A program made the position numbers and the translations under genes. The notes beneath the pieces are model-generated. The model saw only the letters and a program-made list of their open reading frames with translations, had not been told where the DNA came from and made no database searches. Below are positions 1,524 through 4,500 of a stretch of 11,339 nucleotides of DNA, piece by piece; position 1 is the stretch's first letter; every line of letters starts with the position of its first letter. The stretch comes from Candidatus Thorarchaeota archaeon (lineage in GTDB: Archaea; Asgardarchaeota; Thorarchaeia; Thorarchaeales; Thorarchaeaceae): NCBI GenBank assembly GCA_048882485.1, contig JBHLRP010000076.1, positions 1 to 11,339 of the forward strand, given 5' to 3'.

Positions 1524-4500
1524 CTACTTCTTCTCTGAATCAATGCTCTTTAGAAGCTCATCAACTAAAGCTGCGGGTAGGTTACGTGCTTGTTTCAAGA
1601 TGGATTCAATCTCTTCCTTCGGGAGTCCTCTCTTTTTCAGTTCCTCTTTAAGGTTCTCAATATCCATTTCACTAAGCCTATCTTCGAATTCTACTACATC
1701 TTCGTCTACGGGGGCAAGTCCCTCCACCTCTTGAAGGAATTCCGAAACTAGGTCTCTTGGAACCTTCTTGGCTTGTTCAATGATATTCTCTATCTCTTCC
1801 TCTGGTGTTCCCTTGATGAACAACCTGCCTCGAAGCGCAACCAGCTCATCCTCGGTCATCGTTACAGGAGGTTCTGGCTTCTTCCTAACTTCGTGATCCT
1901 CTCTAAATCCTTCCAGCAGCTCCATTGCCAATGCTCTGGGCACACCCCTAGCTTGCTCAAGAATCTTCTCTATCTCTTGGAGCTCCGCTCCTTCTTCTCT
2001 AAGTTGCACCCTCAGCATTTCGATTTCTGAATCAGTTAGATATGCTACATCCTCTTTTGTTTCATGCATGTCAACAGCTTGCCCTACACCCTTGAGTAGC
2101 ATTTCCCCTACATCCTTGGGTAGCTGTCTTGCCTGTTCAATCAATGAATCAACTTCATGAATTGGAAGTCCTCGAGCTATGAGCTGAGAGCGCATTTCGT
2201 TGAGTTCTGACTCTGTGAGTCGCTCCTCCGGTGCTTTCTCAACTTCAGCCCATTCAGTTGGTTCACTTATGCCATAGATTTGCGCAAGAGGCCTGCTGTC
2301 TGTCACTTCTCCACCAACCAAGCTAATCCTCTGTTGACGGACCTCCTCAAGAACCTCTTCCACAGTCGAATTCTTTTCTTGGGCAATTCGAACAGCTTCC
2401 TGTGCAATAACTTCACGGGCAAAGGAAACTTGTTCGCTTCCCTTCATTTTCGATATAGCTTGTCTGAACTCCTCAAGCTCTTCTGGTGTCATATCAGTGA
2501 GTATTGAAAGGTCGATGATCATTTCCTCAATTACCGGAATTTCAATGACAATAGGTTCAGCTGCAAGACCTTCAACTCCCCTAGAGAGACCTATAGGTTG
2601 ACCCATTTCATTGAATAGCTTAGAAACAAGCTCATGTCTGCTTTTTATCGTCTTGTCTGATTTGGGTACCTTCCCTCGTGCCAGCTCTCTTAGCATAGCG
2701 GAGATTTTTCTGACCATTTTCGGAACCTTGAGAATCCTCCTCCAGAACACACCAATCAACGCGAGGGCGATAATGAACACAGGCCCAAAGGTCATCATGT
2801 TCTGAACCAATATGTCGGTGTCAGATGGGCTTACAGAAATGGTGAATCGTATGAGCTGTGTTTCGAAGTTGGTCTTATTGACAACAACGTCGAACTCAGC
2901 AGTGCCTGTACTAGTCAATGCAACAAGAGTGATAGTATAGCGGCCATCAGGTCCAGCTGGATCTACACTTCTGATATCTAGATAAGGATCAATGTTGCCC
3001 GTGATTGCAACTATGGCATTAGTTATGCCCTCTGAATTATGACCTGGCCATGTATCGTAGTAGATTACTTCAAGGGATATCTCTTGGTTATACAGGACTG
3101 ATAAAACTGGGCCGCCAATTACATCCAATCCTGTTGGAATCTCAATGATCTCAATTTCAAAGACTAAGCTAGCTGAAGTTCGATTCTCAAGAGATAAGGC
3201 AATGGTGAATACAAACTGGTCAAGCAATTCCCAATCATTTGAATCAAAGTTGAAAGAGTAGGTTCCCAATGGTGAACCTTGAAGTTCGAGTTCCCTCTCA
3301 AAGAATCCTGGTCCAGAATAATGGGCGGTAACAATGGTTGCACCAGCAATGCCTTTATTCAGGTATGTATCGTTATAGAGAATAGAAACCATTAATGCAT
3401 CACCATAAGGAACATGCAACGAAGCTCCGCTCTCATCTACGAAATAATAGGATGATGCAACTATCACTGCTTCAGTTGGTGCAGGTTCGACACGAAAAGT
3501 GATGCTAATCTCTGAATCATCATAGTTGAGCTTACTAAATCCAATCGATATGCGATAGGTTGCAGGTCTAAGCAATGTCGTGTTTATAGGAATACTATAG
3601 ACTCCATTGCCTTGATGTTGAAGAACACCAGAACCAAGAGCCCAAGAGAATGATGAGTCTGCATCAATAATGCCAACGTCGTTATACAGGTCTTGATACG
3701 TTACGTTTATGATGCCATTCCATCCCCAATTAGCACTCATATAGCCTGGCGCAAGAGTTGTGGTTGGCAAATTCCTAATGACTAATACAAATGAATACAT
3801 AGCTTCAGTGAAGTTGCCACCTATGGCATTGGCAATTATCCTGAAATTGTGGATAGTCGCGGTTGTGAGTGATGTATCGAAGTCGAAGTAGAAATATCCT
3901 GGCCCTCCAATTGATGAACCATTTATGAGGGTTCCATTTGCTGCTAGTTCAGGGGAATACCAAGTCACAAAACATGTTGGGATTGTTATATTCAGATCTG
4001 GAGTGCCAACATAGACTCCAATCCTCACAGTTTGAGACCAGTTAATCGATGTGTATTGATACATGCTTGTGAGGGCATCCGGTTCGAGCTCAAGTAGTAT
4101 TTGTGTGACAGTCATTGTGAGAGCAAGAGAAGCTGACGTGTAGTTTTGCTTTGCGGCACTGATAATGATTTGATAAGATATCGTTTCAGCAAGCTTGGTG
4201 GATATAGTAAACCAATAGTATCCCGGCATACCTGATACATCAGCTAGATTGATGTTGCTACCAAAGTCCCAATTTGCATAGAGGGTAGCTCCATCTACAA
4301 ATGCATCGGATAGCGTGTCTTTCAAAAAGACTGTGATGTTCTTCGCGCTCTGTTGATTCACATTGAAAGAATACTGAGAATCCTCGGGTGCCAAGTCCAT
4401 GGGTCTTGTAAGCAACCTGAATACAATCTGTTCTGTTGCCTCAAGATAGTTTGGAGCTCTTGCGCTCACAGTAAGTACAATGGTGCCTGTAGTTGAACCA

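What the first reader, a model, noticed from the sequence alone, without database searches (positions are those of the whole stretch)
1527..2225. Unassigned ~60-aa helical repeat (x4) at the cytoplasmic C-terminus of a giant surface protein
Seen: LTESELNEMRSQLIARGLPIHEVDSLIEQARQLPKDVGEMLL / LTDSEIEMLRVQLREEGAELQEIEKILEQARGVPRALAMELL / MTEDELVALRGRLFIKGTPEEEIENIIEQAKKVPRDLVSEFL / LSEMDIENLKEELKKRGLPKEEIESILKQARNLPAALVDELL. G, E, QA and P are invariant, and charged spacers separate the units. The pattern suggests small three-helix bundles strung like beads. It partly resembles SAP helix 1 (LKEELKKRGL), the Pex14 N-terminal domain (KGLTxEEI, which binds aromatic WxxxF/Y peptides) and UBA-like bundles, but none fits fully. 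Inference: a multivalent intracellular binding platform, possibly for Trp-containing peptides such as those in the neighbouring protein.
Basis: partly seen in the sequence, partly recalled or inferred. Interest (0 to 1): 0.72.

Follow-up and report, generated by a model that had tools for sequence, protein, structure and literature searches.

The report
Thorarchaeal giant-protein tail three-helix units
The four repeats are real: each is a small, acidic three-helix bundle of a family missing from Pfam, NCBIfam and the PDB, which forms the inner (cytoplasmic) end of giant cell-surface proteins in Thorarchaeota (Asgard archaea) and most likely serves as a string of protein-docking knobs whose partner is still unknown.

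Summary
Window 1527-2234 (- strand) encodes four units of about 60 aa at the extreme C-terminus of a giant ORF of at least 3271 aa. Pairwise similarity lies far above shuffles. AlphaFold2 models each unit as an independent three-helix bundle joined by disordered linkers.

The unit matches no family in Pfam or NCBIfam, and no PDB sequence or fold specifically. SAP, Pex14_N and RecX hits are short and below threshold. UBA is not among the recurrent hits.

It is a narrow family: 112 members among 1.84 billion representative proteins. All end within 6 residues of the C-terminus, with 1 unit (102) or 4 units (7). It occurs in 42 of 43 sampled genomes of the window's family and in its sister family, and barely elsewhere in the phylum. 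Record titles name Thorarchaeota.

Units are acidic (mean net charge -6.4), under purifying selection, and the slowest-evolving part of the tail between old paralogs. The quadruplication is old, and each position keeps its own identity.

Best reading: tethered protein-docking knobs on an acidic leash, partner unknown. The IWDD-peptide idea has no support. However, 4-unit giants co-occur with, and lie beside, an LRR plus atypical small-GTPase gene pair. This scan had already flagged the same tail on other DNA.

The parts
1524..11339 (-). Giant type-I surface protein gene. Its 5' end is cut by the contig end, leaving 3271 aa plus the stop codon. Layout: DUF2341 + Laminin_G_3 head, long Ig-like stalk, one TM helix, then a 403-aa cytoplasmic tail.
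   Evidence: ORF list and translation. Pfam hits: Laminin_G_3 at 3.3e-13 and DUF2341 at 9.1e-06. TM helix and tail.
2736..2798 (-). Single transmembrane helix, about aa 2848-2868.
   Evidence: Kyte-Doolittle scan found one candidate in the ORF. Net charge is -1 in the 30 aa before it and +10 in the 40 aa after it.
2313..2735 (-). Membrane-proximal module: a basic juxtamembrane segment (aa 2869-2913) and a helical core (about aa 2935-3009). This is the widely shared part of the tail.
   Evidence: The profile from alignment A5 matches window 2328-2744 at 3.2e-57, and matches 95 of 201 sampled genomes of the phylum in 12 of 27 families. AF2 models the core with helices at pLDDT about 80.
2235..2312 (-). 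Leash between the membrane-proximal core and unit 1 (aa 3010-3035). It belongs to the 31-residue linker segment (aa 3010-3040) that is 84-97% identical among orthologues and 23% identical to the old paralogue.
   Evidence: The central part is modelled as disordered (pLDDT below 50 at tail residues 158-169). Identity to the old paralogue is 23%. Across the family the leash has a mean net charge of -6.3.
2055..2234 (-). Unit 1 (aa 3036-3095): three-helix bundle.
   Evidence: Profile match at 9.9e-31. In the AF2 model built with 128 aligned units, helices span unit residues 8-20, 25-37 and 40-58, with mean pLDDT 84.
1875..2054 (-). Unit 2 (aa 3096-3155).
   Evidence: Profile match at 2.2e-28. Three helices in the whole-tail model.
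1695..1874 (-). Unit 3 (aa 3156-3215).
   Evidence: Profile match at 5.2e-29. Position-3 units form one clade across six 4-unit proteins, with support 0.97.
1527..1691 (-). Unit 4 (aa 3217-3271), followed directly by the stop codon at 1524-1526.
   Evidence: Profile matches at 2.2e-25 and 4.5e-23. In 112 of 112 family members the last unit ends within 6 residues of the C-terminus.
74..1414 (+). Convergent neighbour gene, 109 bp from the giant's stop codon. It encodes a 446-aa protein: a conserved N-terminal domain of no known family, an acidic linker with two conserved Trp-Asp motifs, and a Ras/Roc-like GTPase domain with a deviant P-loop. Its link to the tail is contextual only.
   Evidence: Pfam hits: Ras at 9.1e-13 and Roc at 3.9e-07. 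Orthologues and their gene context. Motif conservation.

Best explanation
The four repeats are copies of an uncatalogued protein domain of about 55 residues, confined to Thorarchaeota. Each copy folds on its own into an acidic three-helix bundle.

The domain always forms the extreme cytoplasmic C-terminus of a family of giant type-I surface glycoproteins (lectin-like head, Ig-like stalk, one TM helix). It hangs on a largely disordered acidic leash (28-63 residues in the eight giants read here) below a membrane-proximal module that is much more widely distributed.

Most likely each bundle is a tethered docking knob for a cytoplasmic protein. One-unit tails offer one site. Four-unit tails offer four non-equivalent sites, which allows avidity or assembly of several partners under the membrane.

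Shown: the repeat, its predicted fold, its family limits, its position, its charge, and selection on it. Inferred: the cytoplasmic location (from sequence features) and the docking function. The partner is not identified.
For: The repeat is real. The fold is three helices per unit at pLDDT 72-88, with linkers below 50. The single unit modelled with 128 aligned homologues gives pLDDT 84 and pTM 0.65.

Family and position:
- 8 giant ORFs in the window's own genome end in the unit.
- 1.84 billion representatives yielded 129 hits, of which 112 are members. All are C-terminal. 102 have 1 unit and 7 have 4 units.
- 90 of 112 also carry the membrane-proximal module. The other 22 are short fragments or gene calls that look chimeric.

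Distribution:
- The unit is in 42 of 43 genomes of the window's family and 1 of 1 of the sister family. Only 5 weak hits (E about 1e-4) occur in the other 156 genomes sampled from the phylum.
- The membrane-proximal module is in 95 of 201 genomes, in 12 of 27 families.

Constraint:
- dN/dS is 0.06-0.09 among orthologues.
- Between the two old 4-unit paralogues the units are 62-76% identical. The juxtamembrane segment is 42%, the core 52%, and the linkers 10-61%. dN is 0.26 for the units against 0.50 and 0.52 for the other parts.
- Positions 1, 3 and 4 are each monophyletic across six proteins.

Chemistry:
- Mean net charge is -6.4, and 98% of units are negative.
- Besides the hydrophobic core and the Gly turn, seven polar columns are 81-99% conserved.
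- The tail has no Cys and no enzyme-family match.

Topology:
- Paralogues have signal peptides.
- Sequons number 12-28 per 1000 aa outside against 0-8 in the tail.
- The segment after the TM helix carries +6 to +10.

By fold, the nearest solved structures are protein-binding three-helix modules: protein A B domain, GA module, KIX, and the paramyxovirus P X domain (Z 5.6-6.4).
Against: No partner is identified. Genes next to the other six giants in this genome are unrelated housekeeping genes.

Several of the best-conserved polar residues sit where helix caps and inter-helix salt bridges would be. Much of the conservation could therefore serve folding rather than an interface.

The fold matches are at noise level for helical bundles (the tool's own note). 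They say nothing about function.

The structure is predicted, not solved. The organism is uncultured, so expression and topology are untested.
Confidence: 0.55

Rival explanations
1. Electrostatic latch or cross-linker. The acidic terminal bundle folds back onto the strongly basic juxtamembrane segment of its own tail (autoinhibition of adaptor docking). Alternatively it binds the segment of a neighbouring giant, and four-unit tails then act as cross-linkers that cluster giants.
For: The charges are complementary: +8.3 for the juxtamembrane segment, against -6.3 for the unit and -6.3 for the leash, across 76 tails. 90 of 112 members carry both modules. Giants are encoded in tandem pairs, including a 1-unit plus 4-unit pair. 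The first helix of the unit weakly resembles a helix of the core (hhalign probability 31%, 23 columns).
Against: Charge does not covary between the juxtamembrane segment and the unit (Spearman 0.13, p 0.26). The single-sequence model of the whole tail shows no confident packing between domains (pTM 0.28). The membrane-proximal module exists without the unit in many other families, so it does not need the unit.
Confidence: 0.15
2. The units are Pex14-N-like aromatic-peptide binders that capture the two Trp-Asp motifs of the neighbouring GTPase, so the four-unit tail is a platform for that protein (or for its LRR partner).
For: - Both Trp-Asp motifs are invariant in 8 orthologues, inside an otherwise variable acidic linker.
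- The GTPase gene lies next to a 4-unit giant in four genomes of the window's genus, counting the window itself. In a second genus, two GTPase paralogues each lie next to a giant.
- Within three genera, 7 genomes have both the 4-unit giants and the close GTPase orthologue, 7 have neither, and none is discordant.
- 13 of 128 units give Pex14_N hits below threshold.
Against: - The GTPase was found at E<=1e-40 in 12 of 46 genomes of the window's family, and the unit in 42 of 43.
- Both the units and the motif-bearing linker are acidic.
- The Pex14_N matches are below threshold and cover only the helix-turn-helix motif.
- The motifs are not WxxxF/Y.
- Co-occurrence of physically linked genes can simply reflect one variable genomic island.
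Confidence: 0.07
3. Passive physical role. The folded acidic beads and leash act as a cytoplasmic bulky anchor or entropic bristle, without a specific partner. Possible effects include fixing N-out/C-in topology, spacing giants apart, or keeping the tail off the membrane.
For: The tail beyond the juxtamembrane segment is extremely acidic, at -13 to -40. The best-conserved polar residues are compatible with purely structural roles. No conserved neighbour gene exists for most paralogues.
Against: A spacer would not need a precisely conserved 55-residue fold that evolves more slowly than the rest of the tail. It also would not need four positions that each keep their own sequence identity across genomes.
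Confidence: 0.1
4. A nucleic-acid-binding motif of the SAP/HeH or RecX type, tethering DNA or RNA to the membrane.
For: Recurrent Pfam hits below threshold: RecX_HTH1 in 49 of 128 units (best E 1.9e-4), RecX_HTH2 in 16, SAP in 5.
Against: Mean net charge is -6.4, and 98% of units are negative. Every hit is below the curated cut-off and covers 12-20 residues. hhalign against E. coli RecX gives probability 1.8%. SAP has two helices, whereas the unit has three.
Confidence: 0.03

Closest known systems
Tandem three-helix-bundle binding modules of bacterial surface proteins (staphylococcal protein A B/Z domains, streptococcal GA module)
   Same: Size (about 55 residues) and up-down-up three-helix topology. 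Arranged as several beads on short linkers. Each bead is an independent protein-binding site. VIA-align gives Z 5.8-6.2, rmsd 1.8-2.4 over 51-53 residues. Tandem protein A domains also appear in the whole-tail Foldseek list.
   Different: No sequence relationship, and the Z values are at noise level for helical bundles. Those modules are extracellular and bind host proteins. The units here are cytoplasmic, acidic, always C-terminal and archaeal.
SAP domain (PF02037) and the wider HeH/LEM/Rho-N motifs
   Same: The first helix and the Gly turn share a similar residue pattern. The Pfam SAP hit is 14.4 bits over 12 residues.
   Different: The hit is below the 23.9-bit cut-off. Only 5 of 128 units hit at E<=0.1. 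The unit has three helices rather than two, and is acidic rather than basic.
Pex14 N-terminal domain (PF04695)
   Same: A small three-helix bundle with a similar helix-Gly-turn-helix motif. 13 of 128 units give hits below threshold, best E 8e-4.
   Different: No hit reaches the curated cut-off. From my own knowledge of the human Pex14 sequence (not tested here), the shared motif covers the last two Pex14 helices but the first two helices of the unit, so the WxxxF/Y groove has no counterpart. No Pex5/Pex19-type ligand is present.
RecX three-helix repeats (PF21982, PF02631)
   Same: Tandem three-helix units of about 50 residues. This is the most frequent weak Pfam hit, in 49 of 128 units.
   Different: All hits are below the cut-off. 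The window genome's only RecX_HTH1 hit is one of these tails, at 19.4 bits against a cut-off of 26. hhalign probability is 1.8%. RecX repeats pack into one rigid body and are basic.
Cytoplasmic tails of eukaryotic adhesion receptors (integrins, cadherins, Fat/protocadherins) that recruit adaptors
   Same: By analogy only: a large glycosylated ectodomain, one TM helix, a basic juxtamembrane segment, and a conserved tail that would recruit cytoplasmic proteins.
   Different: No homology. The eukaryotic tails mostly use short linear motifs rather than folded bundles. No partner is known here.

Membership tests
SAP domain (PF02037) | Match to the Pfam model at or above the gathering score (23.9 bits) over most of its 37 positions | tested here: not met
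   14.4 bits, E 0.03, covering profile positions 10-21 only. 5 of 128 units hit at E<=0.1.
SAP domain (PF02037) | Two-helix helix-extended-loop-helix motif with a basic, DNA-binding character | tested here: not met
   Three helices are predicted. Mean net charge is -6.4, and 98% of units are negative.
Pex14 N-terminal domain (PF04695) | Match to the Pfam model above its curated cut-off | tested here: not met
   No hit for the window's tail. 13 of 128 units hit below threshold, best E 8e-4.
Pex14 N-terminal domain (PF04695) | A hydrophobic groove that binds WxxxF/Y or F/YFxxxF helical peptides | not testable with these tools
   The tools give no model coordinates. The neighbour's Trp motifs are not WxxxF/Y.
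UBA domain (PF00627) | Match to the Pfam model, or a fold match to UBA structures | tested here: inconclusive
   UBA is not among the 25 families most often hit by the 128 units at E<=0.1.
RecX three-helix repeats (PF21982/PF02631) | Match above the 26-bit cut-off, or profile-profile support | tested here: not met
   The best E among 128 units is 1.9e-4, below the cut-off. The whole-genome scan gives 19.4 bits at best. hhalign against E. coli RecX gives probability 1.8% over 21 columns.
Generic up-down-up three-helix bundle (protein A / GA / KIX-like topology) | Three helices of about 13, 13 and 19 residues packed as one bundle | tested here: met
   AF2 gives mean pLDDT 84 and pTM 0.65. VIA-align gives Z 5.6-6.4 and rmsd 1.8-3.0 over 50-59 residues to such bundles. 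This is shared topology only, not evidence of homology.
Thorarchaeal giant-tail terminal unit (family defined here, alignment A3) | Profile match, extreme C-terminal position, and location downstream of a TM helix and the shared membrane-proximal module | tested here: met
   The four window units score 81-99 bits. The last unit ends at the stop codon. The membrane-proximal module matches at 3.2e-57.

The most novel reading that the evidence does not exclude
The four-unit tail is the cytoplasmic scaffold of an archaeal surface-to-switch device. A giant lectin/Ig adhesin would recruit, through its four non-equivalent three-helix knobs, the LRR protein and the atypical Ras/Roc-like GTPase encoded in the same variable genomic island. 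That would be a split, ROCO-like module. Contact at the cell surface would then be coupled to a GTPase-type switch inside a close relative of eukaryotes.
Probability: 0.1. Interest if true: 0.8.

Novelty: new variant of a known kind. Interest (0 to 1): 0.5.

Why it matters
[quoted passage not shown] The cultured ones display many complex surface proteins instead of an ordered S-layer (PMC9834061). Archaeal giants headed by a Laminin_G_3 domain are described as having no understood function (PMC11573180).

Prokaryotic surface proteins rarely have a folded, conserved, selected cytoplasmic tail. Such a tail implies that these giants are wired to something inside the cell. Defining the terminal unit gives experimenters three things:
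- Its limits, fold, charge, copy-number rule and lineage range.
- A small soluble bait of 55 residues for finding that partner.
- A clear separation between the lineage-specific terminal unit and the widely shared membrane-proximal part of the tail.

Tried and rejected
- Complex prediction of the whole neighbour GTPase (alignment of 8 orthologues) with one unit (alignment of 128) returned 'no answer'. The score was 0.00 against a mark of 0.32, and the controls were not run. This is not evidence for or against binding.
- Tandem Repeats Finder found no DNA-level repeat.
- Single-sequence and profile searches of PDB sequences gave only designed helical repeats and a short polycystin-2 segment.
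- Foldseek against the PDB found nothing better than E 2.9 for the unit and E 0.29 for the whole tail.
- NCBIfam gave nothing.
- The search for related loci with the 128-unit alignment failed for lack of a conserved stretch. The single-protein run gave five close orthologues, which supplied the organism names.
- The weak library hits at E>1e-9 with many matched stretches are other helical repeat or coiled-coil proteins (FliK, intermediate-filament-like and others). They are not members.
- Charge covariation between the juxtamembrane segment and the unit gave no signal.
- I checked the 736-aa ORF upstream of another giant pair as a possible adaptor. It is a secreted membrane-anchored protein with an HExxH motif, not an adaptor.
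- Four literature searches found no description of this tail.
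Full report
**Observation**

The window is a whole contig of 11,339 bases (C76 of a 3.96-Mb, 157-contig genome). Its - strand carries one uninterrupted frame from 11339 to the stop at 1524-1526. That is 3271 codons, and the 5' end runs off the contig.

Seven columns are invariant among the four: L, G, E, Q, A, P, L. Pairwise the 42-residue cores share 16-20 identities. 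They score 80-94 in local BLOSUM62 alignment, against 23.3 +/- 4.7 (maximum 45) for 3000 shuffles.

There is no repeat at the DNA level, so the copies are old. The profile envelope of the first unit begins at 2234, 9 nt beyond the stated end.

**The protein around the repeats**

- The N-terminal end holds DUF2341 and Laminin_G_3.
- A hydropathy scan finds a single TM helix at about aa 2848-2868, leaving a 403-residue tail.
- The N-terminus is missing here, but seven paralogues in the same genome have N-terminal signal peptides.
- In all eight proteins N-glycosylation sequons are dense before the TM helix (12-28 per 1000 aa) and rare after it (0-8).
- The 30 residues before the TM helix are slightly acidic (-1 to -4).
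- The 40 residues after the TM helix carry +6 to +10.
- The tails contain no Cys.

The cytoplasmic position of the tail is therefore a well-supported inference, not a measurement.

**Fold**

AlphaFold2 on the whole tail, without an alignment, gives a helical module near the membrane (pLDDT about 80) and then four separate three-helix units. The units have block means of 72-88 and are split by linkers below 50. pTM is 0.28, so the domains are not confidently packed against each other.

One unit folded with an alignment of 128 homologous units gives mean pLDDT 84 and pTM 0.65. Its helices span residues 8-20, 25-37 and 40-58. 'Beads on a string' is a fair description.

**Comparison with known families**

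- Pfam gives nothing above threshold for the tail. The best hit is SAP at 14.4 bits over 12 residues.
- Scanning all 128 units one by one gives only recurrent hits below threshold: RecX_HTH1 in 49, Bap31_Bap29_C in 40, RecX_HTH2 in 16, Pex14_N in 13, SAP in 5. UBA is not among the top 25.
- A whole-genome scan with RecX_HTH1 finds one of these tails, at 19.4 bits against a cut-off of 26.
- hhalign of the unit profile against E. coli RecX gives probability 1.8%.
- NCBIfam has no model for it.
- PDB sequence searches return designed helical repeats.
- Foldseek has no hit better than E 2.9.
- An exhaustive VIA-align search gives Z no higher than 6.4. The hits are generic three-helix bundles: protein A, GA module, KIX, and the paramyxovirus P X domain. 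The tool states this is within the noise for helical bundles.

What the unit shares with SAP, Pex14_N and RecX is a short helix, Gly turn, helix pattern. I file it under none of them.

**Family limits**

A profile of the 14 copies in this genome was run against 1.84 billion representative proteins. It found 129 hits at E<=1e-3. Of these, 112 are true members and the rest are other helical repeat proteins.

- In all 112 members the last unit ends within 6 residues of the C-terminus.
- 102 have one unit and 7 have four. Three truncated records show two or three.
- 90 of 112 also carry the membrane-proximal module. The other 22 are short fragments or gene calls that look chimeric.

In a sample of 201 genomes of the phylum, the unit is in 42 of 43 genomes of the window's family and in the single genome of its sister family. 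Otherwise it gives only five hits at E about 1e-4. Titles of the closest records name Candidatus Thorarchaeota MAGs. Two are labelled Hermodarchaeota and Promethearchaeota.

The membrane-proximal module is far wider. It occurs in 95 of 201 genomes, in 12 of 27 families. Tails in those other families end in different small helical modules. The unit is therefore a lineage-specific end-piece on a more widely shared tail.

**Selection and history**

Against orthologues, dN/dS of the units is 0.06-0.09.

Between this protein and its old four-unit paralogue on contig C19:

| Tail part | Identity | dN |
|---|---|---|
| Units | 62-76% | 0.26 |
| Juxtamembrane segment | 42% | 0.50 (with core) |
| Core | 52% | 0.50 (with juxtamembrane) |
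| Linkers | 10-61% | 0.52 |

In a tree of all units, positions 1, 3 and 4 of six four-unit proteins each form a clade, with support 0.91, 0.97 and 0.86. One old quadruplication was therefore kept without homogenisation. The four sites are not equivalent.

**Chemistry**

Mean net charge per unit is -6.4, and 98% of units are negative. Besides the hydrophobic core and the Gly turn, seven polar columns are 81-99% conserved. Two of them sit in S/T-x-x-E and P-x-x-E patterns typical of helix caps. Part of the conservation is therefore structural.

The acidity argues against SAP- or RecX-type nucleic-acid binding.

**Genomic context**

The start of this contig overlaps the start of contig C19 by an exact 77 nt. 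The joined island reads as follows:

- this giant (4 units), ending convergent with
- the Ras/Roc-like GTPase gene;
- then, divergent from the GTPase gene, a 207-aa LRR protein gene;
- then a 6555-aa giant (1 unit);
- then a 3994-aa giant (4 units);
- then an aminotransferase gene.

The same LRR-GTPase pair lies beside giants in other genomes:

- In three genomes of the window's genus.
- In two genomes of a second genus, in two different arrangements. One of them carries two GTPase paralogues, each next to a giant.

Across the three genera that hold four-unit giants, 7 genomes have both the four-unit giants and the close GTPase orthologue. Seven have neither, and none is discordant. These genomes are related and the genes are linked, so this shows one variable island rather than proven function.

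The other six giants of this genome have unrelated housekeeping neighbours. The GTPase's two Trp-Asp motifs are invariant in 8 orthologues. Binding of that protein to the unit remains an open idea with no evidence either way.

**Mechanism**

I commit to tethered protein-docking knobs: one or four small acidic bundles on a flexible leash that recruit cytoplasmic partner(s), probably with basic surfaces, to the inner face of the giant (confidence 0.55).

Shown here:
- repeat and predicted fold;
- strict C-terminal position;
- charge and purifying selection;
- lineage range;
- the non-equivalence of the four positions.

Inferred:
- topology;
- the docking role.

Rivals:
- a latch or cross-link onto the basic juxtamembrane segment (0.15);
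- a passive acidic anchor (0.10);
- capture of the neighbour's Trp-Asp motifs or its LRR partner (0.07);
- nucleic-acid binding (0.03).

**Earlier scan notes**

The same tail was flagged several times before, on other DNA and on contig C19 of this genome.

- One follow-up (e1-3173438) reached the same anatomy and also rejected SAP. I reproduced those points independently.
- Another (e1-5554971) stated that the membrane-proximal part recurs in most Asgard lineages. My search agrees, finding it in 12 of 27 sampled families.
- Their proposal that this part docks a longin adaptor was not tested here.

**Literature**

I found no paper that describes this tail. Published context:
- Cultured Lokiarchaeia show numerous complex surface proteins and no ordered S-layer (PMC9834061).
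- Archaeal huge proteins headed by Laminin_G_3 have no understood function (PMC11573180).

**Verdict**

This is a real, conserved, uncatalogued cytoplasmic domain family with a clear architecture and no known partner. It is moderately interesting because of the lineage and the unusual 'receptor-like' tail. It is limited by the lack of functional evidence.

Noticed in passing
window 1-77 and G000 contig C19 1-77: The reverse complement of the window's first 77 bases is identical to the first 77 bases of contig C19. The two contigs probably join. That would make one island holding three giants (4, 1 and 4 units) around a divergent GTPase/LRR gene pair.
   Followed up: partly
window 74-1414 (+): The small GTPase has a deviant P-loop. 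One extra residue sits before the Lys in the window's genus, and the Lys is absent in a second genus. The switch II motif is also non-canonical, while NKxD is kept. It may be a pseudo-GTPase or an atypical switch. Its 120-aa N-terminal domain has no family, and the linker has two invariant Trp-Asp motifs.
   Followed up: partly
G000 C19:176-796 (+) (L063); L040:200-844 (-); L041:2065-2784 (+); L046:2992-3627 (+); L047:3185-3814 (+): In three genera a leucine-rich-repeat protein of 207-240 aa (LRR_8, LRR_4) is encoded divergently from the GTPase orthologue. An LRR protein beside a Roc/Ras-like GTPase resembles a split ROCO arrangement.
   Followed up: partly
window 1985-2038 (aa 3083-3100, linker between units 1 and 2): This inter-unit linker is 94-100% identical among orthologues and 61% identical to the old paralogue, which is unusually conserved for a stretch modelled as disordered. 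It holds a short Asp-Met-His-Glu-Thr motif of unknown role.
   Followed up: no
window 2313-2537 compared with units 1527-2234: The first helix of the unit weakly resembles a helix of the membrane-proximal core (hhalign probability 31%, 23 columns, plus weak HMM hits at the same spot in all paralogues). The unit may derive from a partial duplication of the core.
   Followed up: partly
G000 C16 (5374-aa ORF ending at the contig end): A ninth giant carries the membrane-proximal module, but the contig ends before the position where a terminal unit would lie. The same contig holds another giant of 5171 aa with a different tail.
   Followed up: no
G000 C1:181599-183806 (L034, P0132): Just upstream of another giant pair lies a 736-aa protein with a signal peptide, an HExxH motif and a C-terminal TM anchor. 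It is possibly a surface metalloprotease. It has no Pfam or PDB match.
   Followed up: partly
L064, L065, L069, L073, L067, L068 (other Asgard families): Tails that share the basic juxtamembrane motif end in other small helical modules, each built from two 'L-S/T-x-E-E' helices. The theme of a small helical end-piece on a leash therefore seems general, with lineage-specific end-pieces.
   Followed up: no
library proteins P0013, P0071, P0074: Short metagenome gene calls join a unit to unrelated N-termini (prenyltransferase-like, transporter-like and MoaB-like). They are probably assembly chimeras, but a genuine second architecture is not excluded.
   Followed up: no
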